Below are positions 2,321 to 48,738 of a DNA stretch of 64,000 nucleotides, piece by piece (position 1 is the first letter of the stretch; each line of letters begins with the position of its first letter). The notes under the pieces were generated by a model that was not told where the DNA came from, made no database searches, and worked only from the letters and a program-made list of their open reading frames with translations. Source of the DNA: Eledone cirrhosa (taxonomy: Eukaryota). The DNA is taken from the NCBI GenBank assembly GCA_964016885.1, contig OZ024747.1, forward strand, positions 67,704,001 through 67,768,000, given 5' to 3'. Made by a program: the position numbers and the translations under genes.

Positions 2321-3165
2321 ACAAATTTTAGTACTGCATCAACGAAGCTTTTGGTGGCGGCCAAGCTAACGAATGCAGATTCGGAATGCAGCTTAGCACT
2401 CGATGGAGAATATTACCCCAGAGTTATAACAATACGTTTAGACAGCTTTGCAAATCAAATATAGCGACCGGTAGTCTGGCCGTATTGCCATAGTAACGAA
2501 AAAAACTGAACTCAGGAAAATATTTCGATATATTGTTATACTTGGGGAGGGTCATATTGTTGTAATAACAGAACACACTCACTGTTTGGTTGGTTTTCGC
2601 TTCTGTATCTTTTATATCAGTTAATTTATTCGGTCCTCAATGTTTACCATTGACTGACCAACGGTCAAAAATACAGATATAATATAGATATAAACACATA
2701 TATATAGTCTAACAAAGTTCTTTCGTTGCACATCTGCAACATCATCAGTGGTGCTATTATGTTTCCTCCTGTTGTATTGTGTGTCTACGCCATCTTTATT
2801 TAAGCTGTTTATTTATTTTTTCTTCTTCTTCTCTGCGTGTGTGTATTGTGTTTGATGTGTGTTCGCGTTTGGGTGACTGTGTTTTTGTTATTGCATTCTA
2901 TCTTAGTTTACTAGTGTGTGTTTATATGTGCTTGTTGTTATTGTGCTTGTGTATATATTTATTTATTTATTTATATTTCTCTTAGGTCAGTATTGTTTGT
3001 TTGGATGTTGTTGTTATTCCATTCATTTTTTCTGTTTAGCTTTGGCCTTCTAAGTTCTATTTCACTGGCCTCTCTGTATATATGTATATATATTTATCTA
3101 TATGTATAGATATATATCTATATGTGTGTGTGTGTGTGTGTGAGCGTGCGCATATATGTACACAG

Positions 3166-3196
<31 letters not shown>

Positions 3197-3246
3197 GAGC
3201 GACAGTAAACAAAGCAAGGATTCACATTAAGGTTTTTATTGATTAT

Positions 3247-3337
3247 ACACAGTTACTATCGTTTCACAGATGAGTGGCTCATAATCTATATAAATGATAT
3301 AAACCCGATTTCAGTCCGATCTGCTCATCAGACTTGT
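3247..3337 (-). ncRNA. Type I hammerhead ribozyme motif, canonical core, long stem II insertion
   Basis: Minus strand: ACAAGT CTGATGA GCAGAT-(~48 nt)-ATCTGT GAAAC GATA GTA ACT(G)TGT. Confidence 0.7.
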
Positions 3338-3393
3338 TAATCAAGCAAAGCCAAAATCTCAGCTAAAGCACAAATCTACTGAACCACATATCA

Positions 3394-3436
<43 letters not shown>

Positions 3437-3508
3437 AGAGGGAGAAAGAGACGATTATGAGGAAGAAAAAATGTTTTTTTCCCCTTTTTTTGTCCCTCTC
3501 TCTCTTTT

Positions 3509-3582
<74 letters not shown>

Positions 3583-3936
3583 TATAGGTATTTTATAATA
3601 TTATAGGTTGATAAAAAACACAACTCGGCTCCAGATTACATGTACAGAGTTAGCCCCATCAGTAAGTGTTTGCTGTTATTTTTATTCCTATGAATCTACA
3701 ACCCACCATCTATCTATTTATCTATCGATGCAAATGCCTTAACAATATCCTACAAAACGTGGTTCTGTCTTTGCGTGTAATTGTTTTTCACCGCTCCTAT
3801 TAATGACGTATTATATTCGTTTTTCCCGTTCTTTGCCAAGGAACGTTTCCACAAACCAAAGTATCGTTTTCCTGTCTTCCTACGGTTGCAACGTTTTTTG
3901 AAATATCCACATCTGCGTTTACAGATTGACTTTGTT

Positions 3937-3987
3937 AGTTTCAGAAGATCCCGTTAAGAGTGAAAGCAGCGATTCTTTGCTTAAACT
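3937..3987 (+). ncRNA. Degenerate type I hammerhead ribozyme (U4A core mutation)
   Basis: AGTTT CAGAAGA T CCC GTTAA GAG T GAAA GCA-9nt-TGC TT AAACT. Stems I and III are intact. The downstream tail (atctgtcattttaataaatatttgctctatggttcttata) recurs at ~53582-53622. Confidence 0.55.
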
Positions 3988-4978
3988 TTAATCTGTCATT
4001 TTAATAAATATTTGCTCTATGGTTCTTATATATTTGATATATATTTATCCTTATCGAGCCCTCTTTGGATTTTAGTCTTTGCTGGCCTTGTGCCTATATA
4101 AGAAACCATTATTACTATATATATATATAGCAGCTGGCTTAGACCCCGGATACTTTCCCCCTTTTTCCGACCGCTCCCACTATTCTCTGTGCCCTCTATA
4201 TTTCTTAGTGGCACATGCCTTATTTTTTCGTTTCAGTATTTCTTGCTTCGCTCTTCTTCTGGGCGGGGTGGATTCTGAATTTATTTCTCCGTATTCTACC
4301 TTTATTTCGTACGAACTTTCATGTAGCTTGTTTTAGATCTTTTAGAGTTAGCATTAGTATATATTTTTCTCGGGACTCAGAATTATTATCTCGTACAAGT
4401 TCACTTTGCTGCACTGGGTCGTTGCTGGCCCGGGATGGAAACCTTTATTGTTTATTTCGTGGTAGTCTCTTTAGTATTTTGGCCCCTTTTGTTGACCCGT
4501 CACCGTATCATTTACGTACTTATACCTCTTAAAAGGGTCCTTGCCTTATCCGTCCCACCTAGTTCTCTTACTTATTTCCTTATTTATTCATTTATTTATT
4601 TTTTTACTTCTTTCTTTCTTTCTTTATTTTATTCTCGCCTAACAATAGCCTGACACCTAGGTCGTAGAATTTAATTTACTTTACTTTTCTTTACACTTAT
4701 TTGCCTTTCTTCACTCTCAGTATTTTTTTTTTTTTTTTCTTTCCTATTTCTACCCCCCATTGTTCTACCTACCGTTCCGACTTCCTCCCCCTCCCCCTCC
4801 CCTGTATCTTCTTTGACCTCATGCCCAGCTGTAGCTGGCACTACCAACGCTTGATTGGGTCTACTCCACCCCTCCCCTCTTTCTCCTACTGGCAGGTTTA
4901 GCCACCATCTCCCCTACTAATTTGCAACCACAGAATTACTACTGATTTTTGACAATCACTTTGACCATATATGGAATT

Positions 4979-5072
4979 ACCCCTTGAGAAGATCGGCTAT
5001 TTAAATACCAGGATAAATTTTCATTTAGTCCAGAATTAGCCGTCGAAACGGCTTGAGCTCAGCTGTCGGGGT
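4979..5072 (+). ncRNA. Type I hammerhead ribozyme, U3-A8 variant core
   Basis: ACCCC TTGAGAA GA(T)CGGCTA...TAGCCGTC GAA ACGGCT-TGAGCTC-AGCTGT C GGGGT. GUC triplet at 5065-5067. Confidence 0.75.
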
Positions 5073-5163
5073 CTTACTGGTTCCTATTACCCACTCTACT
5101 ACCTCAAGTATTGAGTACTTTGGTGCGTTATGGTCCACCTGGTTCCTTACCACATTTCCTTCG

Positions 5164-5225
<62 letters not shown>

Positions 5226-5382
5226 ATATATGCATATATACGTACATGTGTGTGCATTTACTTGTTAGAACTAAAGGAATGACACTAAATTTTAACTTGA
5301 GTAAATCTTTTATTTCAATAAGCGTCGAAGTAAACAATTGTAAACAGGTTTTTGTACATATATATATTCTATATATGATATA

Positions 5383-5474
<92 letters not shown>

Positions 5475-5565
5475 ACACACATACACATCGGTCATTACCC
5501 TATCTGCCTATCGTTACCGTGTGGAACTAATGGAACTAAATATCCAACTCATTTCCTTTTGTATT

Positions 5566-5610
<45 letters not shown>

Positions 5611-5761
5611 ATGTGTGCGTTTATGATCGTGTGTGGGTTTGTGAGTAAGAGAGTATGTGCATGTTCTTTTTATGTCCATTTTTTAGTTTCGCTGCGTAAT
5701 TCTTTTGCAGCTTGTTTTCAAATGACAACACTGAAGACTTCAGCATGCACCCCCCCCCCCC

Positions 5762-5818
<57 letters not shown>

Positions 5819-5819
5819 G

Positions 5820-6060
5820 ATATATTAATAAATGGAAACTATATTTATAAAACCATATTTATTTCATTATATATATTTCAAGGACACCAAAGCAAAATAT
5901 GGTGCGCTTTCATCAGATAAAATATAATATAGATCAGTTTTATAAACAAATATTGACATGCCCTTAAAAGAGTGCGACCATATTTTGCTTTGGTGTCCTT
6001 GAAATATGTATAATGAAATAAATATGGTTTTATAAATATAGTTTCCATTTATTAATATAT
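5820..6060. repeat. ~85-bp inverted repeat (5820-5903 / 5977-6060), PLE pseudo-LTR-like inversion between (TA)n tracts
   Basis: tatattaataaatggaaactatatttataaaaccatatttatttcattatatatatttcaaggacaccaaagcaaaatatggt and its near-exact reverse complement. Confidence 0.9.
5860..5924 (-). ncRNA. Type I hammerhead ribozyme, canonical core, palindromic stem III
   Basis: Minus strand: TATTTTAT CTGATGA AAGCGCACCA-10nt-TGGTGTCCTT GAA ATATATAT A ATGAAATA. Confidence 0.75.
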
Positions 6061-6149
6061 TGTATTTTTACTCCAAAAATTTGTTGAGTGCTTTATGTCA
6101 GTTATAAAAATATTTGCTTGTTATATCCCAACAAATTAAATATAACTTC

Positions 6150-6239
<90 letters not shown>

Positions 6240-6336
6240 CTGGACCGGCAATCGCTTTGTATAATCAGTTCCTGATTATTACTGGAATTCTATAAGAATC
6301 CAACACCTATAATTTTTAACAGGCATCGGCGAGTAC

Positions 6337-6382
6337 TAAGCTCTGATGATTACCAACAGTATGAAACAGATCTGTCAGCTTA
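6337..6382 (+). ncRNA. Minimal type I hammerhead ribozyme, canonical core
   Basis: TAAGCT CTGATGA T TAC CAACA GTA T GAA ACAGATCTGT C AGCTTA: 6-bp stem I, perfect 10-nt palindromic stem III, GUC triplet at 6374-6376. Confidence 0.85.
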
Positions 6383-6455
6383 TCTCCCTCTGTTTGTTGA
6401 AAAAAGAGGTAAGTGACATAGTCACTACTTTAAAATAATAGCGCAAGTCTTCAAA

Positions 6456-6506
<51 letters not shown>

Positions 6507-6507
<1 letters not shown>

Positions 6508-7397
6508 TAGCATTAAAGCCCGGCGTTGCTCGGGGTCATTAAGTTACCAAAGTTAGGTTGCACCACCCATTTTATGGCAGCACTTTTTTGTCTGCCAGGC
6601 ACTGGGTGAATGAATTGCAGACCTGGAAGCAGGAGCTGCGCCAGCAGTGACAATTGTAGTTTCGCCTATGGATATTATCTCTGTGCAAAAAAGTGTTGAA
6701 ATTTATTGTTTCACAGTACTTGTGCAACACGCGCGTAGACGATGCCAGCCGAACAACAGAGCTGCGATGGAGTTGTTCTGCATGGTTGTCTGTGTGTTTT
6801 CTAAATTTAAGACAGTAGGGAGGTTTGTGATATAAGGGAGAGTTAGCTGTTGTTTCTAGCAGGTTTAGTGACCTCATAGAGGATATGTGTTTTCTAAATT
6901 TAAGACAGTAGGGCGTGGTGTGATATGGGGGAGAGTTAGCTGCTGTTTCTAGCAGATTTAGTGACCTCATAGAAGATATGTTTTCTAAATTTAAGACAGT
7001 AGGGAGGGGTGTGATATGGGGGAGAGTTAGATGCTGTTTCTAGCAGGTTTAGTAACCTCATAGAGGATATGTGTTTTCTAAATTTAAGACAGTAGGGAAT
7101 GGTGTGAACGGACAGTATCACCATCAAGCTTGGAAAGAGAAAGTAGCAGGAAGTATGAAGTTGTATAGATTTTGAATGGTAGTAGAAAGAGTTCAGCAGT
7201 TTAAATGAGAGAGAAAAATCGTAAAATATTGAGTTTTATCTATTTTTTGCGTAATTGTGGGTGAAATTAAAAAAATTAGCTGCGTCAAGACGCAATCGAA
7301 GCTATTTCGAATACTGAATTGTAAATTTCAATTGAAGAAATTCTATATCGTAGATTTCTATAACGAAGGAGCATGACCACACACTGAGCTTTATAGA
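6507..7397 (-). mobile_element. Non-autonomous Helitron
   Basis: Minus strand 5' A|TCTATAAAG and 3' CCCG-AGCAACGC-CGGG hairpin followed by CTAG|T, with no TSD. A decayed IGETTIV...KKCCHK stretch near 6570-6670 may be a Rep remnant. Confidence 0.75.
6793..7106. repeat. ~93-bp tandem repeat, ~3.4 copies, inside the Helitron
   Basis: tgtgttttctaaatttaagacagtaggg recurs at ~6793, 6886, 6977 and 7070. Confidence 0.9.
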
Positions 7398-7550
7398 TTA
7401 TGATATATAATAACTAGAAATTGATTAACATATAAATAAACATGAATAATCACAGGAGATAATTTTTACAAGTGTGTAAGCACACATAGCTAGGAAGGTA
7501 AATAAAGTTAACCAGAACTTCAAAAATAGATACCTTATAATATGATTAAC

Positions 7551-7643
7551 CTTCCCTGTATATATTCCATTAAAGAAATATATTTCACCAATTAATCGAA
7601 TGGTAAACCATGGAGGCCGGTACTTGGATTTTCAACAAGGAAG
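7551..7643 (-). ncRNA. Type I hammerhead ribozyme, U3-A8 core (paralog of 8209-8306)
   Basis: Minus strand: CTTCCTTG TTGAAAA T CCAA...TTGG T GAA ATATATTTC TTTAAT GGAATATAT A CAGGGAAG. Confidence 0.72.
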
Positions 7644-8208
7644 AAGTCCAGCGATCTATGTTTACACTTCAAGTTCAAATCAGCGACTGGCCAGCAACAC
7701 GTGCTGTATCTACTAGAAATACACACATCATACCAGCTTCTTCACATTGGCGTGAATAGGGTTATCGACAACTAGAAACAGCAGTCAAATCCTTTCAACA
7801 GAGTTCTGGCATGACACCCATAATTTTGATTATCTTAATTTTGGATATATATATATATATATATATATATAACTAGGAATTGATCAACATATATATAAAT
7901 AAATATAAACATGAAAAAATCACAGGAGATAATTTTTACAAGCGTGTAACCACGCATGGCTAGTAGGTAACAAATAAATAAAGTTACTAGAACTTCAAAA
8001 ATATATACCTTTTAATGAATATAGATATATAATACTGCTCCTTAATTGTAGAGCTAACTCTGTTGAAGGGAATTGACTGCTATTTCTAGTTGTCGAATAC
8101 CTATTCACGCCACTGAAACGAAGCCGCTGTGATGAGTAATATCAACACGTGGTAGCGGCCAGTTTAAGATTTTGACTCGAAGTGTAAACATGGATCGCTT
8201 GATATTGT

Positions 8209-8306
8209 TCTTCCTTGTTGATAATCCAATAATATCCACTTTCCGTGACTTACCATCTGATTAATTGGTGAAATATATTTCTTTAATGAAATATATACAG
8301 GGAAGA
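8209..8306 (+). ncRNA. Type I hammerhead ribozyme, U3-A8 core
   Basis: TCTTCCTTG TTGATAA T CCAAT...ATTGG T GAA ATATATTTC TTTAAT GAAATATAT A CAGGGAAGA: 9-bp stem I, 9-bp stem III, predicted cut after 8297. Confidence 0.78.
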
Positions 8307-8646
8307 TTAATCATTAAAAGGTATATATTTTTGAAGTTCTAGCTAACTTTATTTATTTGTTACCTACTAGCCATGCGTGGTTACACGCTTGTAAAAATTA
8401 TCTCCTGTGATTTTTCATGTTTATATTTATTTATATATATGTTGATCAATTCCTAGTTATTAAAATGCTCGTACTTACAAAATCCTAGGGCTTATTTTCC
8501 GGGCGATATGGCGCATTCCGTTAAGGAATGACACCCATAATTTCGATTCTGATTGAATTCTTTTAATCTATCTTAATTTTGGATATATATATATATACAT
8601 GTATATATATATACATGTATATATATATACATGTATATATATATAC

Positions 8647-8719
<73 letters not shown>

Positions 8720-8985
8720 TAGATTTCTTTTATTTGCCACTAGGGCATCAAAAGTGGGACAAGTACAAAGGAGGGAGTTTACACAAAAAGGCGTCCTCAA
8801 TAAGGAGGAGGCAATAACAAAATATAAAAATAAAATAAGATATAACAAAAAATAAAATTTTTAACAAAATCCTCAATAGAGAGGAGGCGCCTTGGGGGGT
8901 CGCACACACCCCCGAAAAAAGTGTGCAACCCTTCTCCTCAGGAGCACAGAGAAGGGGTGCTCCCTTGGTCTTTCATCTTCCTCAC

Positions 8986-11900
8986 CTATAGTCTGATGTA
9001 GAGTGAAGGCCCATTCACACGGGCCATTCTCGCCACTTTCACCCATCTTTCATAGAAACGGCTGGGGTGCAGCACCTCTCTCTCCATCCTGATCCTTCTT
9101 CCGAAATGATATCGGAAGAAACGGACCAGTTGTTGGCCAGAGAGAAAGGTGCCCGACCTCAGTCCTTTCAGACGCGTCCACCATACAACCTCTTTCGCCA
9201 TGGCTATTACGCACAGAAACACCGCCTCTGCTTCATCTTTGAAGGGGGGAGGCGGCTTGATCATTACAATAGACTCGGTGGTCAACCGGATCGGTCCCAC
9301 CCTTGACAGCAGTTGTTCGACATAGCCCCACAGATCGGCTACGCCCGAGCAGTGTACTAATGCGTGTGCAACGGTTTCCTCGTCGCACACGCATCTGGGA
9401 CAGATCTTTTTGGCGGGGTCCCTACCCGGGCGCCCGTGTCTGTAGAGCCTTTCTCGAACGGGTAAAGCCCCTCGGTAGCACTGCCAGGCCAGGGACTTCT
9501 GGAAGTTGTCCATAGGTCCCGGGCTGAATGTCCTACCGAACAGGCTGGCCAGTTCGTCCTCCTCCATGTCTAGGGCTTCTCCGAGGGCGTCGTCGCACCT
9601 GCTGCGCACCAGCCCTCTATAGAATGTTGCGGTGGAGTCTCCACTGATAACCGGATCCGCCTGCCAGAGGGCGGTGAGCGCCTGGGCACACTCAGTGTGC
9701 CAGGCGCCCAGTTTTCTCGGTCTTTGCTTGACCCAGGATTGCAGCTCGGTGAGTGAGACGAGTCTGGGAAAGGTTCGTCTCACAAACGAGGCCCACACCG
9801 GTTGTCCGGTGAGGAATACGTAGAGGTGCCGTAGCCTTAATGCGTGTTTACGCATCATTAGCCACGGCATCCCCAGCCCTCCTTTCGAAGGGTGTTGACA
9901 GCAGATGGATCTCCTCACCATAGGAGCCCGCCTCTTCCAAAGGAATTGGAAGAGCGCGCGCTCCATCTTGGTGAGGGTTTCCCTTGGGCAGGGCACTACG
10001 GTCAGGCGGTAGTAGATGACGGACGCTATGTAGGTGTTCGCCACCTCCGCCCGACCTTTCAGGGATAGTTTGCAACTGGCCCACTTCTGGGTCAGTGCAA
10101 ACACCCTGTTCGTAACCTCCGCCCAGTTTTTCTCCACCTGGAGGTCCGGTCCGAACCAGACCCCGAGCAACTTCACCGGGCCCTCCGTCCAGCGTCCGAC
10201 GACGCTATCGGAGGGCATCGGTCTGCCCCTCCACGTGCCGAGTTGCAAACCGATCGACTTGTCCCGGTTCAGCTTAGCCCCTGTGAACTTTTCGTACTCC
10301 TCCAGTAAGGTGCCGACCGCCTCGATTTCGGAGGCCGTCGACACCATTACTGTCACGTCATCGGCGTAGGCCGACACCGCTTTCCGCAATCCCGGTTCCA
10401 AAGGGATGCCCTGCAACAACTCCAACTTCCGCAGTAGTGGCTCGAGAGTCAACACATACAGAAGGGAGGAGAGAGGGCACCCTTGTCGGATGGACCGCGC
10501 GATTTTGAACGGCTCCGAGAGGTAGCCGTTCACCTTGACCCTAGAGCAGATGCGGCTGCTGTGCATAGCAGTGATCCAGCCCCTGAAAACGGGTCCGAAG
10601 CCTGCCGCCGCTAGCACCGCATCCAGGTAACCATGGTCGACCCTATCGAACGCCTTAGATTGATCCAAGTTGATCAGAGCCCCACCAAAGCCCGGTTCGT
10701 TCCCAACCCTCTCTATGATGTATCGCATGAGGTGGAGGTTGTCATGGATGGACCTGGACGGGATAGCGCATGTCTGCGCATCTCCCACCAAGTTGCCCAC
10801 GACAAGCGCTAACCTCTTTGCTAGCACCTTGGCCAAAATCTGTAACTCTGTATTTAGCAGTGTTATGGGCCTGAAGTTACTTATTTCGTCCCCCTTGTTC
10901 TCGTCCTTCCTCACTAGCGTGACTACTCCCTTGGTCACAGTACAGGGAATTCTCCCGTTCTGTTGCCAGTTGCAGTAGACCGCCTCGAGGAGATCGGGGA
11001 ACAAGTCCGGCATAGCTAGATATAATTCGTAAGGAAGACCATCGAGACCCGGGGATTTGCGTTTGCCGCATTGGCTCAGCACGTCCTCTATCTCAGCGGC
11101 CGAAATCGGCTCCTCGCAGGACTTCGCCTCCCTGTCCGAGAGGCGCGGCAGGCCGTCGAGGTATGGACCGAAGTCCACGTTCCCAACCGGCTCCCCGCCC
11201 CTCCCGAACAGTCGGGCAAAGTGCCTTTGAAAGGCCTCACACATCTGCTTAGGCTCAAGAATCGCCCGTCCATCCAGGTCTCGCAAAGACCGGATGGTGG
11301 ATTTAGTTCCACTGTTGGCCTCTGTCACGCGGGCCCAGCTAACAGCTTTGGTCCCCTCGTTCCCTAGAGCACGTATTTTACTTCGGACAACGCAGCCTTC
11401 GTGCTTCGCGTCGAAAAACTGGCTCAAAGCCGTTCTCGACGCTAGCACTCTGGCCACGTCGCCGCTTCTAATTGCCTCTTCTACTCTATCTATTAGCTCC
11501 CTTTCCTTCCTATTCCTATCCGCAGCTAGAACCTTACTAAATTCTATCGAGACTACTCTAATCTCTCTCTTTAGAGATACCCACCACCTGCTGTTGACGA
11601 TCGCTCCAGTCAACCGTTCCTTAACTAACGTACTAATCCGATTCCTGTAGGCTCTACTTGCCGGCAAGGACAAGTTGAGCTTCCAGTAACCGGGGCCCTG
11701 TCTATGAGTTCTGTCAAGGTTGACCATGCAGGTCCCTAATTTGTGGTCTGAATAGCCAACAATGCGCATTTTTGGACAACTTAAAAAGTCCTTATCCTTA
11801 ATTCTAACTAAGAACCTATCTAGATACGACCTAGATGATCCGCTACGATTTGCCCAAGTCCAGGTTGGCGCAGTCGGAAAATCTAGTCGATATCTATCGG

Positions 11901-12423
11901 CCAGGTCAAATCGACCGATTAACCCTTTGAGGCTATTACACCCCTCTCTATCGGGGCAGGCCCCTACGTAGTCCCAGCGTGCATCTAGGATACCATTCCA
12001 GTCCCCCACTAATAGCAAGGAGCGGGACGTCCCTAGAAAAGTCTCCAGACGATGGAAGAAGTCCGGCCGCATTGACCCGAAAGGGCCGTAGGCGGCTACC
12101 AACCTAAACGCTCCGCCTTTACCACTGCCAAGGTCCAGAACCACTAGTCGACCCTCCGGGTCCAAATGTACCATCTGTGTTGCGAGACCCAGATGTTTTT
12201 GCAGCAGAACGACAACTCCACCCCCACCTCCGGGCTGACAGAGAGATGCGTGCATCTCAAAGTCATCAAAGGTGGGGGCCAGCTGTCGCACGTTGCTGAT
12301 CCGGGCCTCGCAAATAACCATCACATCTATACGTTGTGACCTGAGGTCATTTAGAAGCATTGCTTGCTTCCAAGTTGAGCCCAGGCCACGCGCATTTAAA
12401 CAGCCTACTCTTAGCATAGCCAT
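8986..12423 (-). CDS. LINE ORF2p: APE endonuclease, reverse transcriptase and C-terminal CCHC zinc finger
   Basis: APE motifs LNARG, GDWN, SYLDRF and SDH; RT motifs KSPGLDG, FRPITLLN, DQSKAFDRV, RQGCPLS and YADD; C-terminal CPRC...ETVAHALVHC. The first ATG is at 12423 (aacATGg); the ORF track start at 12447 is GTG. Confidence 0.95.
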   Translation of the reverse strand: MAMLRVGCLNARGLGSTWKQAMLLNDLRSQRIDVMVICEARISNVRQLAPTFDDFEMHASLCQPGGGGGVVVLLQKHLGLATQMVHLDPEGRLVVLDLGSGKGGAFRLVAAYGPFGSMRPDFFHRLETFLGTSRSLLLVGDWNGILDARWDYVGACPDREGCNSLKGLIGRFDLADRYRLDFPTAPTWTWANRSGSSRSYLDRFLVRIKDKDFLSCPKMRIVGYSDHKLGTCMVNLDRTHRQGPGYWKLNLSLPASRAYRNRISTLVKERLTGAIVNSRWWVSLKREIRVVSIEFSKVLAADRNRKERELIDRVEEAIRSGDVARVLASRTALSQFFDAKHEGCVVRSKIRALGNEGTKAVSWARVTEANSGTKSTIRSLRDLDGRAILEPKQMCEAFQRHFARLFGRGGEPVGNVDFGPYLDGLPRLSDREAKSCEEPISAAEIEDVLSQCGKRKSPGLDGLPYELYLAMPDLFPDLLEAVYCNWQQNGRIPCTVTKGVVTLVRKDENKGDEISNFRPITLLNTELQILAKVLAKRLALVVGNLVGDAQTCAIPSRSIHDNLHLMRYIIERVGNEPGFGGALINLDQSKAFDRVDHGYLDAVLAAAGFGPVFRGWITAMHSSRICSRVKVNGYLSEPFKIARSIRQGCPLSSLLYVLTLEPLLRKLELLQGIPLEPGLRKAVSAYADDVTVMVSTASEIEAVGTLLEEYEKFTGAKLNRDKSIGLQLGTWRGRPMPSDSVVGRWTEGPVKLLGVWFGPDLQVEKNWAEVTNRVFALTQKWASCKLSLKGRAEVANTYIASVIYYRLTVVPCPRETLTKMERALFQFLWKRRAPMVRRSICCQHPSKGGLGMPWLMMRKHALRLRHLYVFLTGQPVWASFVRRTFPRLVSLTELQSWVKQRPRKLGAWHTECAQALTALWQADPVISGDSTATFYRGLVRSRCDDALGEALDMEEDELASLFGRTFSPGPMDNFQKSLAWQCYRGALPVRERLYRHGRPGRDPAKKICPRCVCDEETVAHALVHCSGVADLWGYVEQLLSRVGPIRLTTESIVMIKPPPPFKDEAEAVFLCVIAMAKEVVWWTRLKGLRSGTFLSGQQLVRFFRYHFGRRIRMEREVLHPSRFYERWVKVARMARVNGPSLYIRL

Positions 12424-12447
12424 GTTGGTGGTGAAGAGAAAAGGCAC

Positions 12448-14184
12448 TTACCTCTCTGCGTCCCGGGTATCGGGCTGCACAATTTCCATTAGGGTGGGGG
12501 ATGGGTTGTTGGGTGGGGTGGTGGTTTGTGGAAGTGTGGGGGCATCAGTGTGTTGTGTGGTTGGGGAGCTTGGAGTTGTGAGGGTGTTTGGGGAGGGGGT
12601 GGGATAGTTTTTTAGGAGGACGCGGTTAATGGGCCCGACGCAGGGGGGACCCACGTCCTCTTTAAAATTGTTTTTTAAAGTTTTATAGGTGTCCTGTGGG
12701 GCCTTAATCATTTTGAGGTGGGGGAAATCCCCTGCCTGGGTGAAGTTAGGCCCTTGTGTTTTTATTAGATTGTTGTTGTACACAATGTTTAACAGTTTTT
12801 TGTTTCTTGTATTTATGTATGTGTATGCATGTTTTTGTTTTTGTGTGGTGTTTTTTGTTTGCTGTTGTGAGCTCTTTTGTGTTGGTGTCAGTGTTATGTT
12901 TTGGGGAGGGGTTTTTTTCATTTGTGTGTCTGAGGTGTGTTTTCTTATTTTTCTTTTGATTGTGTGGAAGTGCTCCTCCTCGTCTGACGACGAACTAGGG
13001 TCATCTTCCGCGTTGGAGGGGAGGGGTATATTTTCGGGTTGTGTTTGCGGTACGGGTGTTTTGGAAATTGTTTTTGTTTTTTGAGTGGAGGGGATGGGTT
13101 GGACATTGTTTTGTTTTGGTTTGAGCTGTGGTGGTTGTTTTTGTAGTGGTAGTTGTGGTGATTGTGTTGGTTGTGCAGTTGTTGGTGGTGTAGGCAGGAT
13201 TGGGGTTTTCTTATTAAGTTGGGGACAGACAGCCCTCAGGTGACCTCTGGTTCCGCAGAGGTAACACGAGGGCCGTCTACCCTCAACGGTAATGTTGATG
13301 AAGGTTAGATCATCCAGTATGACGCGTTCAGGGATCTGGGCGATCCTTTCGGGCCTCATTTGAACTACAAGTTCGAGGCTCGTTCCACTGAACGCGTCAC
13401 CCGATGCCTTTCCCATGGACACCAGCATGTCATCCTCCAGGTCCAGAAAACCTGTCAAAACCCACCATATGTCCATAATCGGCAGGATGGTGTGGATTTT
13501 TATTTTTTGTGTTCTTCTACCCATGTACGTAGGGTAGAAGGTGTATGCGGTGGATGTGATTGGTTTGATGGACAGTTTCACTGCTGTGTCCCTGTCCTTC
13601 ATGAGAATGGATAGACTCCCGTAGAGTCTATCCTTCTGAATGAAGGTGATGTCCTTCATGACGTCTTTTAAAACCAGCTCTATCTCGCTCTGTGATGGTT
13701 GAGCTGGTTTTTTACTTTTGTTCGAGATTGTCCTAAACATGACCGTGTTTAGGAGTCTCTGGCTTTTTAGTTCCGGGGGGGAATGGATTGTGAATGAACC
13801 ATTTTCCCCGTACACTATATATTTTTTCGCATCCGCCAGTAGCTCCTTCGCTTTTGTTATATCTACTGGCAGATAGTCGAGGGTTTTCCTTGTCGTCTCG
13901 GCGAAGGAGAAATTTTGTTTGTTTGTGTTGTTGTTGTCGTTGGTGGTGTTGTTGTTATCATTGTTGTTGTTGTCACCGTTATTGGTCTTGTTGTTGTTAT
14001 TGTTATTGGTGTTGTTTTCGTCCGTCGCATTGTTGTTGTTGTTGCTGTTGCTGCTGGTTCTTTGGGTTGTTGCCATGGCAACGTCAAGTTGTCGGTTAAC
14101 AGGTGGAGAGAATTCTTCCTCTGGCTGACCTATCTTCTTGACCTCTGCTACTGTGACAGTGGCAGGGGGAAGCTGTAAGTTCAT
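12448..14184 (-). CDS. LINE ORF1p, gag-like with CCHC zinc knuckle
   Basis: Open frame from ATG 14184 (MNLQLPP) containing CYLCGTRGHLRAVC, an N/T-rich N-terminal tract and a P/Q/T-rich C-terminal tract. Confidence 0.85.
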   Translation of the reverse strand: MNLQLPPATVTVAEVKKIGQPEEEFSPPVNRQLDVAMATTQRTSSNSNNNNNATDENNTNNNNNNKTNNGDNNNNDNNNTTNDNNNTNKQNFSFAETTRKTLDYLPVDITKAKELLADAKKYIVYGENGSFTIHSPPELKSQRLLNTVMFRTISNKSKKPAQPSQSEIELVLKDVMKDITFIQKDRLYGSLSILMKDRDTAVKLSIKPITSTAYTFYPTYMGRRTQKIKIHTILPIMDIWWVLTGFLDLEDDMLVSMGKASGDAFSGTSLELVVQMRPERIAQIPERVILDDLTFINITVEGRRPSCYLCGTRGHLRAVCPQLNKKTPILPTPPTTAQPTQSPQLPLQKQPPQLKPKQNNVQPIPSTQKTKTISKTPVPQTQPENIPLPSNAEDDPSSSSDEEEHFHTIKRKIRKHTSDTQMKKTPPQNITLTPTQKSSQQQTKNTTQKQKHAYTYINTRNKKLLNIVYNNNLIKTQGPNFTQAGDFPHLKMIKAPQDTYKTLKNNFKEDVGPPCVGPINRVLLKNYPTPSPNTLTTPSSPTTQHTDAPTLPQTTTPPNNPSPTLMEIVQPDTRDAER

Positions 14185-14239
14185 CTTCCCCTTTCCTCCT
14201 TCGAATTTTGGTGAAGAAGCTTCATATATATATATAGAT

Positions 14240-15155
14240 ATATTTCTTTTATTTGCCACTAGGGCATCAAAAGTGGGACAAGTACAAAGGGGGGAGTTTA
14301 CACAAAAAGGCGTCCTCAATAAGGAGGAGGCAATAACAAAATATAAAAATAAAATAAGATATAACAAAAAATAAAATTTTTAACAAAATCCTCAATAGAG
14401 AGGAGGCGCCTTGGGGGGTCGCACACACCCCCGAAAAAAGTGTGCAACCCTTCTCCTCAGGAGCACAGAGAAGGGGTGCTCCCTTGGTCTTTCATCTTCC
14501 TCACCTATAGTCTGATGTAGAGTGAAGGCCCATTCACACGGGCCATTCTCGCCACTTTCACCCATCTTTCATAGAAACGGCTGGGGTGCAGCACCTCTCT
14601 CTCCATCCTGATCCTTCTTCCGAAATGATATCGGAAGAAACGGACCAGTTGTTGGCCAGAGAGAAAGGTGCCCGACCTCAGTCCTTTCAGACGCGTCCAC
14701 CATACAACCTCTTTCGCCATGGCTATTACGCACAGAAACACCGCCTCTGCTTCATCTTTGAAGGGGGGAGGCGGCTTGATCATTACAATAGACTCGGTGG
14801 TCAACCGGATCGGTCCCACCCTTGACAGCAGTTGTTCGACATAGCCCCACAGATCGGCTACGCCCGAGCAGTGTACTAATGCGTGTGCAACGGTTTCCTC
14901 GTCGCACACGCATCTGGGACAGATCTTTTTGGCGGGGTCCCGTGTCTGTAGAGCCTTTCTCGAACGGGTAAAGCCCCTCGGTAGCACTGCCAGGCCAGGG
15001 ACTTCTGGAAGTTGTCCATAGGTCCCGGGCTGAATGTCCTACCGAACAGGCTGGCCAGTTCGTCCTCCTCCATGTCTAGGGCTTCTCCGAGGGCGTCGTC
15101 GCACCAGCTGCGCACCAGCCCTCTATAGAATGTTGCGGTGGAGTCTCCACTGATA
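14240..15155 (-). mobile_element. 5'-truncated second copy of the same Tx1-like LINE, head-to-tail with the first
   Basis: Near-identical to ~8721-9649, with a 13-bp frameshifting deletion near 14940 between ccc microhomologies. Confidence 0.95.
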
Positions 15156-21503: not shown

Positions 21504-24500
21504 CTGTAGATTATGTAGATTATGTATATTATGTATATTATGTATATTATGTATATTATGTATATTATGTATATTATGTATATTATGTATATTATGTATA
21601 TTATGTAGATTATGTAGATTATGTATATTATGTATATTATGTATATTATGTATATTATGTATATTATGTAGATTATGTATATTATGTATATTATGCAGAT
21701 TATGTATATTATGTATATTATGTATATTATGTATATTATGTATATTATGTATATTATGTATATTATGTATATTATGTATATTATGTAGATTATGTATATT
21801 ATGTATATTATGTATATTATGTATATTATGTATATTATGCAGATTATGTATATTATGTATATTATGTATATTATGTATATTATGTATATTATGTATATTA
21901 TGTAGATTATGTATATTATGCAGATTATGTATATTATGTATATTATGTATATTATGTATATTATGTATATTATGTATATTATGCAGATTATGTATATTAT
22001 GTATATTATGTATATTATGCAGATTATGTATATTATGTATATTATGTATATTATGCAGATTATGTATATTATGTATATTATGTATATTATGCAGATTATG
22101 TATATTATGTATATTATGTATATTATGCAGGTTATGTATATTATGTATATTATGTATATTATGCAGATTATGTATATTATGTATATTATGTAGATTATGT
22201 ATATTATGTATATTATGTATATTATGTATATTATGTATATTATGCAGATTATGTATATTATGTATATTATGCAGATTATGTATATTATGTATATTATGTA
22301 TATTATGCAGATTATGTATATTATGTATATTATGTAGATTATGTATATTATGTATATTATGTATATTATGCAGATTATGTATATTATGTATATTATGTAT
22401 ATTATGTATATTATGCAGATTATGTATATTATGTATATTATGTATATTATGTATATTATGTATATTATGTAGATTATGTATATTATGTATATTATGTATA
22501 TTATGTATATTATGTATATTATGTATATTATGCAGATTATGTATATTATGTATATTATGTATATTATGTATATTATGTATATTATGCAGATTATGTATAT
22601 TATGTATATTATGCAGATTATGTATATTATGTATATTATGTATATTATGTATATTATGCAGATTATGTATATTATGTATATTATGTATATTATGTATATT
22701 ATGTATATTATGTATATTATGCAGATTATGTATATTATGTATATTATGTATATTATGTATATTATGCAGATTATGTATATTATGTATATTATGTATATTA
22801 TGCAGATTATGTATATTATGTATATTATGTATATTATGTATATTATGCAGATTATGTATATTATGTATATTATGTATATTATGCAGATTATGTATATTAT
22901 GTATATTATGTATATTATGTATATTATGCAGATTATGTATATTATGTATATTATGTATATTATGTATATTATGCAGATTATGTATATTATGTATATTATG
23001 TATATTATGTATATTATGCAGATTATGTATATTATGTATATTATGTATATTATGCAGATTATGTATATTATGCAGATTATGTATATTATGTATATTATGT
23101 ATATTATGTATATTATGTATATTATGTATATTATGCAGATTATGTATATTATGTATATTATGTATATTATGTATATTATGCAGATTATGTATATTATGTA
23201 TATTATGTATATTATGCAGATTATGTATATTATGTATATTATGTATATTATGTATATTATGTATATTATGCAGATTATGTATATTATGTATATTATGTAT
23301 ATTATGCAGATTATGTATATTATGTATATTATGTATATTATGCAGATTATGTATATTATGTATATTATGTATATTATGCAGATTATGTATATTATGTATA
23401 TTATGTATATTATGTATATTATGTATATTATGTATATTATGCAGATTATGTATATTATGTATATTATGTATATTATGTATATTATGTATATTATGCAGAT
23501 TATGTATATTATGTATATTATGTATATTATGCAGATTATGTATATTATGTATATTATGCAGATTATGTATATTATGTATATTATGTATATTATGCAGATT
23601 ATGTATATTATGTATATTATGTATATTATGTATATTATGTATATTATGCAGATTATGTATATTATGTATATTATGTATATTATGCAGATTATGTATATTA
23701 TGTATATTATGTATATTATGCAGATTATGTATATTATGTATATTATGTATATTATGCAGATTATGTATATTATGTATATTATGTATATTATGCAGATTAT
23801 GTATATTATGTATATTATGCAGATTATGTATATTATGTATATTATGCAGATTATGTATATTATGCAGATTATGTATATTATGTATATTATGTATATTATG
23901 CAGATTATGTATATTATGTATATTATGTATATTATGTATATTATGTATATTATGTATATTATGTATATTATGTATATTATGCAGATTATGTATATTATGT
24001 ATATTATGTATATTATGTATATTATGCAGATTATGTATATTATGTATATTATGTATATTATGCAGATTATGTATATTATGTATATTATGTATATTATGTA
24101 TATTATGTATATTATGCAGATTATGTATATTATGTATATTATGTATATTATGCAGATTATGTATATTATGTATATTATGTATATTATGCAGATTATGTAT
24201 ATTATGTATATTATGTATATTATGCAGATTATGTATATTATGTATATTATGTATATTATGTATATTATGTATATTATGTATATTATGCAGATTATGTATA
24301 TTATGTATATTATGTATATTATGCAGATTATGTATATTATGTATATTATGTATATTATGTATATTATGTATATTATGCAGATTATGTATATTATGTATAT
24401 TATGTATATTATGCAGATTATGTATATTATGTATATTATGTATATTATGCAGATTATGTATATTATGTATATTATGTATATTATGCAGATTATGTATATT

Positions 24501-27500
24501 ATGTATATTATGTATATTATGCAGATTATGCAGATTATGTATATTATGTATATTATGTATATTATGCAGATTATGCAGATTATGTATATTATGTATATTA
24601 TGTATATTATGCAGATTATGTATATTATGTAGATTATGCAGATTATGTATATTATGTATATTATGTATATTATGCAGATTATGCAGATTATGTATATTAT
24701 GTATATTATGTATATTATGTATATTATGTATATTATGTATATTATGTATATTATGTATATTATGTATATTATGTATATTATGTATATTATGCAGATTATG
24801 TATATTATGTATATTATGTATATTATGCAGATTATGCAGATTATGTATATTATGTATATTATGTATATTATGCAGATTATGCAGATTATGTATATTATGT
24901 ATATTATGTATATTATGCAGATTATGTATATTATGTAGATTATGCAGATTATGTATATTATGTATATTATGTATATTATGCAGATTATGCAGATTATGTA
25001 TATTATGTATATTATGTATATTATGTATATTATGTATATTATGTAGATTATGCAGATTATGTATATTATGTATATTATGTATATTATGCAGATTATGCAG
25101 ATTATGTATATTATGTATATTATGTATATTATGCAGATTATGTATATTATGTATATTATGTATATTATGTATATTATGTATATTATGTAGCTTATGCAGA
25201 TTATGTATATTATGTATATTATGTATATTATGCAGATTATGCAGATTATGTATATTATGTATATTATGTATATTATGCAGATTATGCAGATTATGTATAT
25301 TATGTATATTATGTATATTATGCAGATTATGTATATTATGTATATTATGTATATTATGTATATTATGTATATTATGTATATTATGTATATTATGTAGATT
25401 ATGTAGATTATGTATATTATGCAGATTATGTATATTATGTATATTATGCAGATTATGTATATTATGTATATTATGTATATTATGTATATTATGTATATTA
25501 AGTATATTATGTATATTATGCAGATTATGTATATTATGTATATTATGTATATTATGTATATTATGTAGATTATGTATATTATGTATATTATGCAGATTAT
25601 GTATATTATGTATATTATGTATATTATGTATATTATGTATATTATGTATATTATGTATATTATGCAGATTATGTATATTATGCAGATTATGCAGATTATG
25701 TATATTATGTATATTATGCAGATTATGTATATTATGTATATTATGTATATTATGTATATTATGTAGATTATGCAGATTATGTATATTATGTATATTATGT
25801 ATATTATGTATATTATGTAGATTATGCAGATTATGTATATTATGTATATTATGTATATTATGTATATTATGTATATTATGTAGATTATGCAGATTATGTA
25901 TATTATGTATATTATGTATATTATGTATATTATGTATATTATGTATATTATGCAGATTATGCAGATTATGTATATTATGTATATTATGCAGATTATGTAT
26001 ATTATGTATATTCTGTATATTATGTATATTATGTATATTATGTATATTATGCAGATTATGTATATTATGTATATTATGTATATTATGTATATTATGTATA
26101 TTATGTATATTATGTAGATTATGCAGATTATGTATATTATGTATATTATGTATATTATGTATATTATGTATATTATGTAGATTATGCAGATTATGTATAT
26201 TATGTATATTATGTATATTATGTATATTATGTATATTATGTATATTATGCAGATTATGCAGATTATGTATATTATGTATATTATGCAGATTATGTAGATT
26301 ATGTATATTATGTAGATTATGTAGATTATGTATATTATGTATATTATGTATATTATGTATATTATGTATATTATGTATATTATGCAGATTATGTATATTA
26401 TGTATATTATGCAGATTATGTATATTATGTATATTATGTAGATTATGCAGATTATGTATATTATGTATATTATGCAGATTATGTATATTATGTATATTAT
26501 GCAGATTATGTATATTATGTATATTATGTATATTATGTATATTATGTATATTATGTATATTATGTATATTATGTATATTATGTATATTATGTATATTATG
26601 CAGATTATGTATATTATGTATATTATGCAGATTATGTATATTATGTATATTATGTATATTATGTATATTATGTATATTATGTAGATTATGTATATTATGT
26701 ATATTATGTATATTATGTAGATTATGTATATTATGTATATTATGTATATTATGTAGATTATGTATATTATGCAGATTATGTATATTATGTATATTATGTA
26801 TATTATGTATATTATGTATATTATGTATATTATGTATATTATGTATATTATGTATATTATGCAGATTATGTATATTATGTATATTATGCAGATTATGTAT
26901 ATTATGTATATTATGTATATTATGTATATTATGTATATTATGTATATTATGTATATTATGTATATTATGTAGATTATGTATATTATGTATATTATGCAGA
27001 TTATGTATATTATGTATATTATGTATATTATGTATATTATGTAGATTATGTATATTATGTATATTATGCAGATTATGTATATTATGTATATTATGTAGAT
27101 TATGTATATTATGTATATTATGTATATTATGTATATTATGTATATTATGTATATTATGTATATTATGTATATTATGTATATTATGTATATTATGTATATT
27201 ATGTATATTATGTATATTATGTATATTATGTAGATTATGTATATTATGTATATTATGTATATTATGTATATTATGTATATTATGTATATTATGTATATTA
27301 TGTATATTATGTATATTATGTAGATTATGTATATTATGTATATTATGTAGATTATGTATATTATGTATATTATGCAGATTATGTATATTATGTATATTAT
27401 GTAGATTATGTATATTATGTATATTATGTATATTATGTATATTATGTATATTATGTATATTATGTATATTATGTATATTATGTATATTATGTATATTATG

Positions 27501-36500: not shown

Positions 36501-37225
36501 TGTATATTATGTATATTATGTATATTATGTATATTATGTATATTATGTATATTATGTATATTATGTATATTATGTATATTATGTATATTATGCAGATTAT
36601 GTATATTATGTATATTATGTATATTATGCAGATTATGTATATTATGTAGATTATGTATATTATGCAGATTATGTATATTATGTATATTATGCAGATTATG
36701 TATATTATGTATATTATGCAGATTATGTATATTATGTATATTATGTATATTATGTATATTATGTATATTATGTATATTATGTATATTATGTATATTATGT
36801 ATATTATGTATATTATGTATATTATGTAGATGATGTATATTATGCAGATTATGTATATTATGTATATTATGTATATTATGTATATTATGTAGATTATGTA
36901 TATTATGTATATTATGTATATTATGTAGATTATGTATATTATGCAGATTATGTATATTATGTATATTATGCAGATTATGTATATTATGTATATTATGCAG
37001 ATTATGTATATTATGTATATTATGTATATTATGTATATTATGTATATTATGCAGATTATGTATATTATGTATATTATGTATATTATGTATATTATGTATA
37101 TTATGTAGATGATGTATATTATGCAGATTATGTATATTATGTATATTATGTATATTATGTATATTATGTAGATTATGTATATTATGTATATTATGCAGAT
37201 TATGTATATTATGTATATTATGTAT
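21504..37225. repeat. 15.7-kb 9-bp satellite (TTATGTATA)n with TTATGCAGA and TTATGTAGA variants, ~1,750 units
   Basis: Direct inspection. Confidence 0.99.
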
Positions 37226-47900: not shown

Positions 47901-48738
47901 CATAGTTAATAACAAACACTATATAACAGCCATAGTTAATAACAAACACTATATAATAGCCATAGTTAATAACAAACACTATATAACAGCCATAGTTAAT
48001 AACAAACACTATATAACAGCGATAGTTAATAACAAACACTATATAACAGCCATAGTTAATAACAAACACTATATAACAGCCATAGTTAATAACAAACACT
48101 ATATAACAGCCATAGTTAATAACAAACACTATATAATAGCCATAGTTAATAACAAACACTATATAACAGCCATAGTTAATAACAAACACTATATAACAGC
48201 CATAGTTAATAACAAACACTATATAACAGCCATAGTTAATAACAAACACTATATAACAGCCATAGTTAATAACAAACACTATATAACAGCCATAGTTAAT
48301 AACAAACACTATATAACAGCCATAGTTAATAACAAACACTATATAACAGCGATAGTTAATAACAAACACTATATAACAGCCATAGTTAATAACAAACACT
48401 ATATAACAGCCATAGTTAATAACAAACACTATATAACTGCGATAGTTAATAACAAACACTATATAATAGCCATAGTTACTAACAAACACTATATAACAGC
48501 CATAGTTAATAACAAACACTATATAACAGACATAGTTAATAACAAACACTATATAACTGCCATAGTTAATAACAAACACTATATAATAGCCATAGTTACT
48601 AACAAACACTATATAACAGCCATAGTTAATAACAAACACTATATAACAGCCATAGTTAATAACAAACACTATATAACAGCCATAGTTAATAACAAACACT
48701 ATATAACAGCCATAGTTAATAACAAACACTATATAACA
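44945..48738. repeat. 3.8-kb 30-bp minisatellite (AACAAACACTATATAACAGCCATAGTTAAT)n, ~126 units
   Basis: Direct inspection; phase is unbroken from ~45268 to the end. Confidence 0.99.

What the first reader, a model, noticed from the sequence alone, without database searches (positions are those of the whole stretch)
3247..8306. Seven hammerhead motifs from six families within 5 kb
Seen: HHR folds at 3247-3337(-), 3937-3987(+), 4979-5072(+), 5860-5924(-), 6337-6382(+), 7551-7643(-) and 8209-8306(+), mostly in short non-coding islands between (TA)n tracts. Inference: these are solo pseudo-LTRs or retrozyme-like non-autonomous PLE derivatives that target TA repeats. If active, any transcript crossing this region on either strand would be cut, for example an intron of a long host gene.
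Basis: partly seen in the sequence, partly recalled or inferred. Interest (0 to 1): 0.75.

Follow-up and report, generated by a model that had tools for sequence, protein, structure and literature searches.

The report
Pile-up of Penelope hammerhead ends
Seven separate jumping-gene insertions, each carrying a hammerhead-ribozyme-shaped sequence, sit in TA repeats within 5 kb; this is a dense patch of something the genome holds an estimated quarter of a million times, likely pasted in by known Penelope-like retrotransposons, and most of these copies likely cut passing RNA poorly or not at all.

Summary
The motifs are real. Six of seven pass a type I hammerhead descriptor (shuffles: 0.03). The seventh has a broken stem II and a U4A core. 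Each belongs to a separate insertion from a multicopy family. Two are truncated 3' ends of protein-coding Penelope-like elements (PLEs) with Hydra-clade motifs; one family has 50 stop-free ORFs among 57 scored. Three come from 317-563-nt non-coding units; two are unresolved. Seventy-nine sampled 10-kb tiles give about 1 motif per 10 kb, roughly 2.5x10^5 genome-wide, tracking TA tracts. The cluster is a rare tail, but the 64-kb window is average. In 109 of 112 back-to-back insertions the two arms end at different family-specific points. This fits the published two-site internal priming by PLE reverse transcriptase. One family has 13,198 exact U4A copies against 54 canonical. The claim that any crossing transcript would be cut is not supported: PLE hammerheads are reported as weak, dimer- or protein-dependent, and no host gene was found. 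Verdict: new members of a known class. This scan noted the same class, scale, two-arm rule and U4A family before, on other DNA of this genome.

The parts
3207..3395 (-). Insertion 1: older PLE-type end. Minus arm 3207-3357 carries HHR 1 (core CTGATGA at 3331-3325, long stem II, 2-bp helix III, predicted cut after 3254). A short plus arm (about 3365-3395) runs into (TA)n.
   Evidence: (961 candidates, 79-88% identity). The plus arm was matched by eye to the family tail printed.
3755..4112 (+). Insertion 2: 5'-truncated 3' end of an autonomous PLE with Hydra-clade motifs. HHR 2 has a U4A core (3942-3948), stem II broken at 3959, and H17 = U at 3982.
   Evidence: 13,198 exact A4 copies; 54 U4 copies; 18 of 114 scored matches lie in stop-free frames of 700 aa or more.
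4130..5164 (+). Insertion 3: 1035-nt 3' end of a young autonomous Hydra-type PLE, starting in the TA tail of insertion 2. HHR 3 has a U3:A8 core (4984-4990), a 6-bp helix III and a predicted cut after 5067.
   Evidence: L252: pLTR-ORF-pLTR, unit 3546 nt; 50 of 57 scored ORFs stop-free, 99-100%; 99.7% to full-length copies; active fold is the MFE.
5818..6152 (.). Insertion 4: two-armed fold-back. Minus arm 5818-5981 carries HHR 4 (core 5916-5910, palindromic TATATA loop 3, predicted cut after 5868). Plus arm 5977-6152 lacks the core and ends at the second fixed site.
   Evidence: (inverted repeat I2).
6237..6458 (+). Insertion 5: partial copy of a 317-nt non-coding unit with HHR 5 (core 6343-6349, U.U at the base of stem II, palindromic loop 3, predicted cut after 6376).
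   Evidence: (2207 candidates; tandem copies 316-317 nt apart).
7410..7845 (.). Insertion 6: two-armed copy of a 546-nt non-coding unit. Minus arm 7410-7805 carries HHR 6 (U3:A8 core 7635-7629, 9-bp helix III, predicted cut after 7559). A short plus arm 7803-7845 runs into (TA)n.
   Evidence: 2081 candidates, 97-99%; unit spacing 546 in L317 and L319.
7869..8580 (.). Insertion 7: two-armed copy of a sister unit of about 563 nt. Minus arm 7869-8021; plus arm 8019-8580 carries HHR 7 (U3:A8 core 8218-8224, predicted cut after 8297).
   Evidence: (2704 candidates, 97-99%).
2520..3075 (-). Eighth insertion, just outside the finding: 3' end of another PLE-type element (frame ending ...KLNRKNEW). It has a hammerhead core at 2748-2742, a 6-bp stem II that covaries between families, and a weak stem I.
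   Evidence: Right boundary from the alignment; left boundary by eye.
3396..8721 (.). (TA)n tracts that bound and separate the insertions: 3396-3432, about 4113-4129, 5165-5209, 5765-5817, 6153-6236, 6459-6506, 7845-7871, 8583-8721.
   Evidence: junctions.

Best explanation
The region is a nest of seven independent insertions into (TA)n tracts, each carrying the type I hammerhead-shaped end of a Penelope-like element (two from protein-coding families with Hydra-clade motifs, three from short non-coding units, two unresolved), all likely written in by PLE endonuclease and reverse transcriptase. Shown here: multicopy families, TA-bounded ends, ORF linkage for families 2 and 3, two fixed 3' end sites per family, and genome-wide density that tracks TA tracts. 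Inferred: the PLE protein cuts both strands of a TA tract. It primes cDNA from each broken end at two different internal sites 3' of the hammerhead on an uncut (or circular) RNA, which gives back-to-back arms that keep the ribozyme whole. Each insertion leaves TA on both sides, so later insertions pile up beside it. The hammerheads likely serve the element's own RNA, cutting slowly or only with protein or dimer help, and are passengers for the host at this locus.
For: Descriptor against shuffles. All seven islands are multicopy, with closest relatives from 87% to 99.7%, so they arrived at different times. Full pLTR-ORF-pLTR elements exist for family 3: 29 of 30 ORF loci show two same-strand HHRs, 28 of them about 3.53-3.56 kb apart. 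Family 2 has them too (L327). RWR, DKT and CxCX5C motifs match the published Hydra definition, a clade reported to insert in (TA)n and known from Octopus. Back-to-back TA-bounded pairs end at different sites in 109 of 112 cases over six families. PMC11167929 shows a PLE protein cutting and extending both strands, starting at two internal sites, with HHR mutants inserting normally. Insertion events correlate with TA tracts (rho 0.51, 79 tiles). Flanks of family copies hold 0.9-1.9 other-family events per 10 kb against 0.56 in tiles. Four neighbouring pairs of repeats share one TA tract.
Against: The cluster exceeds every sampled tile: 6 events in about 5 kb against a maximum of 3 in 198 five-kb half-tiles. 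The estimate of 13-17 such tiles genome-wide is an extrapolation. No ORF partner was identified for families 1, 4, 5, 6 and 7, so mobilisation in trans is inferred. Hydra membership rests on motifs, not a tree; Pfam gave no hit for the family 2 and 3 proteins, and DKT/DKG was not found in family 2. PMC11167929 saw no difference in start site between strands, so the strict one-site-per-arm rule is not explained by it. Compensatory stem changes show the fold was selected in the elements, and motifs 3, 6 and 7 have helices long enough to act as monomers.
Confidence: 0.85

Rival explanations
1. Circular-RNA (retrozyme) route: tandem units self-cleave, circularise and are reverse-transcribed as circles, so the hammerheads are essential and active in the source elements.
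For: Tandem non-coding units of 317, 546 and about 563 nt and arrays of the 3.5-kb unit. Copies read through the cut site intact. Circles are shown for coral, mussel and axolotl retrozymes (PMC7229834). Compensatory stems.
Against: A family with a U4A core reached more than 13,000 exact copies. HHR mutants insert normally in vitro, and no reads ended at the HHR site (PMC11167929). Uncut read-through RNA explains the same DNA structures. This rival concerns the template and is compatible with the nest explanation.
Confidence: 0.3
2. The cluster is a host-selected RNA-cutting element that ends or destabilises transcripts on both strands.
For: Four motifs on + and three on -. Local density is about 20 times the mean for 5-kb tiles. 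Motif 3 is predicted to fold as an active monomer. Domesticated intronic hammerheads exist in amniotes (PMC6155905).
Against: Insertion 3 is 99.7% identical to full-length elements, and five others are 96-99% identical to their closest dispersed copies, so they are too young to show selection. Motif 2 is broken. No host exon was found in 264 kb (60, weak test). The whole window has average density.
Confidence: 0.04
3. The islands are MITE-like DNA transposons (inverted repeats, TA target), and the hammerhead shapes are incidental or chance.
For: Long inverted repeats at 5810-6070 and 7869-8460 flanked by TA.
Against: The arms have unequal fixed ends and variable inner truncation, and tandem partial units occur. 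Families 2 and 3 are linked to RT ORFs. Shuffles give 0.03 motifs.
Confidence: 0.02

Closest known systems
Hydra clade of C-terminal EN+ Penelope-like elements, including Hydra-1_Obim of Octopus bimaculoides (Craig et al. 2021, PMC8557442; passages, section 11, supplement part 2 of 59)
   Same: Single RT-then-GIY-YIG ORF with RWR, DKT (family 3) and CxCX5C; HHR near the 3' end, often with U.U at the base of stem II; (TA)n insertion; tandem and inverted arrangements.
   Different: Units here are 3.2-3.5 kb (published: mostly under 3 kb). Family 3 has a U3:A8 core and long stem II; family 2 has a fixed U4A core. All Hydra HHRs listed in the supplement have CUGAnGA. Families here are young and very abundant.
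PLE pLTR hammerheads (Cervera and de la Pena 2014, PMC4209133; parts 1-2 of 4)
   Same: Type I motifs in many families per genome, mostly as single truncated copies, some in opposite-strand pairs 100-700 bp apart; U3-A8 variant; palindromic short helix III; low activity in vitro.
   Different: Reported counts are thousands (about 9,000 in Xenopus tropicalis, about 2,000 plus 1,300 in Schistosoma); the estimate here is about 2.5x10^5 with a different descriptor.
Metazoan non-LTR retrozymes (Cervera and de la Pena 2020, PMC7229834, passages; Li, Clavereau and Pollet 2026, 10.64898/2026.07.22.740005, parts 1-2 of 5)
   Same: Non-coding units of a few hundred nt with one type I HHR each, low GC, tandem copies and dispersed monomers, proposed to be non-autonomous PLE derivatives.
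   Different: Circular RNA and cleavage were not testable here. Window copies are partial monomers or two-armed, so they fail the two-consecutive-unit criterion for an 'active' retrozyme. Units of 546-563 nt exceed the 170-400 nt of the 2020 paper but lie within the 51-972 nt of the 2026 one.
PAc Poseidon element mechanism (Frangieh et al. 2024, PMC11167929; parts 1-2 of 4) and the one-sided 'tail' of inverted pLTRs (Arkhipova et al. 2013, PMC3846280; passages)
   Same: AT-rich target, both strands extended, two internal start sites giving two fixed 3' ends, tail on one of two inverted arms.
   Different: The sites here lie about 25-120 nt apart rather than 30-40. The one-site-per-arm rule is near-strict (109 of 112), whereas PAc showed no strand difference in vitro.

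Membership tests
Type I hammerhead ribozyme | Core C3(U3)-U4-G5-A6-N7-G8(A8)-A9, then GAAA, then UH, in type I order | tested here: met
   Met for motifs 1 and 3-7. Motif 2 has A at position 4, so the feature is not met for it.
Type I hammerhead ribozyme | Three helices with conserved or compensating pairs | tested here: met
   Descriptor; sister copies passing: 9/24, 24/29, 29/29, 22/24, 9/24 and 24/29 for families 1, 2, 3, 4, 5 and 7 (29); covariation in the family-4 group (84). Stem II is broken in the window copy of motif 2.
Type I hammerhead ribozyme | Self-cleavage at the UH site | not testable with these tools
   No assay. Folding prediction favours the active fold only for motif 3 (59), and this model tends to under-rate three-way junctions (own knowledge).
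Hydra-clade PLE (families 2 and 3) | Single ORF with RT and C-terminal GIY-YIG endonuclease, flanked by pLTRs | tested here: met
   YRDD then YIG in 784-aa and 713-aa frames between HHR-bearing repeats. Pfam gave no hit on these two proteins; a weak GIY-YIG hit fell on another PLE-like ORF in the window.
Hydra-clade PLE (families 2 and 3) | RWK-type motif and DKT in place of DKG | tested here: inconclusive
   Family 3: RWR at 104 and DKT at 184. Family 2: RWR present; DKT/DKG not found in L325 or L327 (80).
Hydra-clade PLE (families 2 and 3) | CxCX5C linker; CxxC and CxH flanking the conserved E and N | tested here: met
   Both families against the definition.
Hydra-clade PLE (families 2 and 3) | Absence of the CCHH motif in the endonuclease | tested here: inconclusive
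   No CX2-5CxxC in P0001 (80); no alignment to reference endonucleases was made.
Hydra-clade PLE (families 2 and 3) | Insertion into (TA)n and an HHR near the 3' end | tested here: met
   27 of 29 loci in each family (32); HHR positions.
Hydra-clade PLE (families 2 and 3) | Placement in the Hydra clade by RT phylogeny | not tested
Non-LTR retrozyme (families 5, 6, 7) | Non-coding unit of a few hundred nt with one type I HHR, found in tandem | tested here: met
   Units of 316-317, 546 and about 563-567 nt seen as partial or full tandems in sister loci; no sense-strand PLE ORF end within 1.5 kb upstream in 24 (family 5) and 29 (family 7) loci.
Non-LTR retrozyme (families 5, 6, 7) | Two consecutive HHR-bearing units at the locus (Li et al. 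criterion for 'active') | tested here: not met
   Each window copy holds one HHR.
Non-LTR retrozyme (families 5, 6, 7) | Expressed linear and circular unit-length RNA | not testable with these tools
   No RNA data could be examined; see Tried and rejected.
Non-LTR retrozyme (families 1, 4) | Defined short non-coding repeat unit | tested here: inconclusive
   Shared sequence mostly stops within 300 nt upstream of the HHR and no ORF was seen, but no consistent unit length emerged; these could be short ends of autonomous elements.

The most novel reading that the evidence does not exclude
This genome is a natural experiment on what PLE hammerheads are for. It holds about 250,000 motifs. An autonomous family spread to more than 13,000 copies with A fixed at core position 4. 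Insertions follow a near-strict rule that one PLE complex primes the two ends of a cut TA tract at two different sites of its RNA. Together these would mean that the hammerhead works as a slow, protein-gated processing or docking structure, and that PLE integration is asymmetric twin priming, with nests like this one as its self-reinforcing product.
Probability: 0.4. Interest if true: 0.65.

Novelty: new member of a known kind. Interest (0 to 1): 0.38.

Why it matters
The cluster itself is ordinary for this genome, but it samples a large load of PLE hammerheads: about 83 per Mb, against 126,247 motifs reported for the 28-Gb axolotl genome (PMC7229834 for the count; 10.64898/2026.07.22.740005 for the size; descriptors differ). 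It gives two concrete handles on the open question of what PLE hammerheads do and how PLEs integrate. One is a young family with many intact ORFs whose hammerhead is predicted to fold as a monomer (family 3). The other is a successful family with a U4A core (family 2). At about one motif per 10 kb, long introns would often contain such motifs, so either most are inert in passing transcripts or they shape where insertions are tolerated; strand bias within introns would tell.

Tried and rejected
Rfam scans: nothing at gathering score; only simple-repeat noise in the listed E-value matches. Sequencing runs: no RNA holder listed, so no reads were laid. Host gene search: 125 non-repeat ORFs of 62 aa or more across the window and 100 kb each side gave no Pfam hit above cut-off (five ORFs had sub-threshold hits); short exons would be missed. 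A possible ninth motif at 5630-5750 (core-like TTGAAAA with a 5-bp hairpin) is single-copy in the genome search and was rejected. Pfam did not recognise the family 2 and 3 ORFs. Background sample: 79 evenly spaced tiles were obtained of 120 asked for, so the density interval is wide. The first two-arm count was swamped by TA matches for family 3 and was redone with masking; known overlapping loci were dropped before counting, and a few overlaps may remain. The MITE and chance readings were rejected (see rivals). Literature: searches showed no paper on cephalopod hammerhead counts or on a U4A natural core. Three listed papers containing 'u4a' with 'hammerhead ribozyme' (PMC2770079, PMC8096339, PMC5993326) were not opened, and figures of Perreault 2011 and Cervera 2014 that draw core variants could not be seen, so absence from print is not established. 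The shared 3' hairpin proposed in earlier scan notes was not tested.


Full report
Setting. The window is G000:C7:67704001-67768000 in a 3.0-Gb animal genome, rich in simple repeats. An octopod host is likely: earlier scan notes say so, and Hydra-clade PLEs are listed for Octopus. I did not test this.

Observation. Reading 2500-9500 and applying a type I descriptor finds six of the seven claimed motifs, with cores at 3331(-), 4984(+), 5916(-), 6343(+), 7635(-) and 8218(+). Two hundred local dinucleotide shuffles give a mean of 0.03. Motif 2 has the layout, but its core is CAGAAGA and its stem II is broken by a private change; 24 of 29 sister copies pass when position 4 is left free. Motifs 3, 6 and 7 carry U3:A8, a known natural covariation (PMC4209133; PMC3088659 section 8). 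Motifs 2, 5, 6 and 7 open stem II with U.U, which is also known and common in the Hydra list. Rfam has no match at gathering score. In 13 family-4-like motifs, 93% of stem cells pair and 14 cells change on both sides against 5.4 in shuffles; relatedness is not controlled.

What the islands are. Each island is a separate multicopy repeat: first-look candidates numbered 961, 4329, 406, 356, 2207, 2081 and 2704 for families 1-7, with 40 scored each. Closest relatives run from about 87% (family 1) to 99.7% (family 3). Family 3 copies continue upstream into a GIY-YIG-type C-terminus about 1.2 kb before the HHR. L252 is a complete pLTR-ORF-pLTR unit of 3546 nt with a 784-aa open frame. Fifty of 57 scored genomic matches have no stop, at 99-100% identity, and 29 of 30 fetched loci show two same-strand HHRs, 28 of them about 3.53-3.56 kb apart. 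The protein has RWR, DKT, YRDD, CxCX5C, YIG and CxxC/CxH around E and N, which are the features Craig et al. use to define the Hydra clade. Family 2 is a second such family: 18 of 114 scored matches lie in stop-free frames of at least 700 aa, with RWR and CxCX5C but no DKT found. Its HHR is fixed at A4: 13,198 exact copies against 54 with U4 (the second pattern is 4 nt shorter and allows any N7). Families 5, 6 and 7 are non-coding units of 317, 546 and about 563 nt seen in partial tandems. Families 1 and 4 show no ORF and no clear unit.

Insertion anatomy. Copies end in (TA)n at fixed sites 3' of the HHR. Prompted by earlier scan notes, I counted back-to-back pairs bounded by TA on both sides. 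The two arms end at different points in 15 of 15 (family 7), 23 of 24 (4), 8 of 8 (5), 1 of 1 (1), 37 of 38 (3) and 25 of 26 (2), that is 109 of 112 (62). Most pairs use the family's two modal sites, for example +109/+192 in family 3 (31 pairs) and +252/+372 in family 7 (13 pairs). One arm was fixed by how loci were chosen, but the other was free. In the window, insertions 4 and 7 (62), 6 and, by eye, 1 are two-armed; 2, 3 and 5 are single truncated arms. Four neighbouring pairs share one TA tract: 2|3, 4|5, 5|the 6507 repeat, and 6|7. This fits published work. A PLE protein cuts AT-rich DNA, extends both strands and starts at two internal RNA sites that define the 'tail'; its HHR cuts only with protein, and HHR mutants insert normally (PMC11167929). 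The tail is reported on one of two inverted pLTRs (PMC3846280; PMC8557442).

Is the cluster special? In 79 evenly spaced 10-kb tiles the same descriptor finds 71 motifs (shuffles 3, 6, 6, 8) in 44 insertion events. That is about 2.5x10^5 motifs net; the bootstrap range on the raw count is 1.7-4.0x10^5. The 200 kb around the window holds 26 (23), and the window as a whole holds 6 in 64 kb, the genome average. Events rise with TA tracts (rho 0.51), and flanks of family copies hold 0.9-1.9 other-family events per 10 kb against 0.56 (57). No 5-kb half-tile of 198 had more than 3 events, so 6 is rare. Poisson or negative-binomial extrapolation gives about 13-17 such tiles genome-wide. A rare tail of a clumped process accounts for it.

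Would passing transcripts be cut? Not shown, and mostly unlikely. Motifs 1, 4 and 5 have short or palindromic helix III and no same-family partner on their strand; single minimal motifs showed no activity and dimers low activity in PMC4209133. Motif 2 is broken and has U4A; changes at most core positions sharply lower activity, though U4C is tolerated in a viroid. Motifs 3, 6 and 7 could fold alone, and only motif 3 has the active fold as its minimum-energy structure (P 0.47 with 20-nt flanks, 0.03 with 150). No host exon was detected among 125 ORFs in 264 kb (60), a weak test.

Comparison and verdict. Hammerheads in PLE ends, TA-targeting Hydra elements in Octopus, non-autonomous retrozyme-like derivatives and two-site priming are all described. 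The scale, the fixed U4A core and the near-strict arm asymmetry were not found in the papers searched; a 2026 O. vulgaris repeat annotation has no occurrence of 'ribozyme' or 'hammerhead'. Figures and some listed papers were not seen. This scan's earlier notes reached the same points on other DNA of this genome; they are leads, and the counts above are my own. Papers seen: PMC8557442 (passages, section 11, supplement search and part 2 of 59), PMC4209133 (parts 1-2 of 4), PMC7229834 (passages), 10.64898/2026.07.22.740005 (parts 1-2 of 5), PMC3088659 (passages, section 8), PMC11167929 (parts 1-2 of 4), PMC3846280, PMC6155905 and PMC13282606 (passages). The finding is real, explained by a known class, and of moderate interest.

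Noticed in passing
window 2520-3075 (-), core 2748: Eighth hammerhead-like motif at the 3' end of another PLE-type family (frame ending LNRKNEW). Core and stem II are conserved and covary between two families, but stem I is weak in this family.
   Followed up: partly
window 6507-7405: Repeat without an HHR, inserted in TA, with an internal 93-nt tandem (3.4 copies); 2 relatives in 79 tiles at about 95%. Its ends look like a Helitron/Helentron-type non-autonomous element (recalled resemblance, not tested).
   Followed up: partly
window 8725-15040 (-): Apparently intact two-ORF LINE (643 aa, then 1153 aa with endonuclease, RVT_1 and zf-RVT), followed by a partial second copy of its 3' end.
   Followed up: partly
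window 54432-55400 (+) and 62314-63528 (+): Two further PLE ORF fragments; the second is 42% identical to the family 3 protein with a CxCX5C linker. No HHR was detected beside them by either descriptor.
   Followed up: partly
window 21505-37225 and 44949-48738: A 15.7-kb array of a 9-nt unit and a 3.8-kb array of a 30-nt unit; these HHR-free satellites dilute the window's motif density.
   Followed up: no
L176, L181, L212, L223, L237, L242; L208:4374: Other fixed position-4 variants: a family with CCGAnGA (U4C) in 10 of 10 motifs, and a second, unrelated CAGAAGA motif.
   Followed up: no
L185, L210, L212: Tandem arrays of 311-nt and about 482-nt HHR units; those in L185 and L210 are two-armed with opposite orientations. 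These are typical retrozyme arrays.
   Followed up: no
window 5630-5750: Hairpin with a hammerhead-like core on the minus strand; single-copy in the genome search, so probably chance or a decayed copy.
   Followed up: yes
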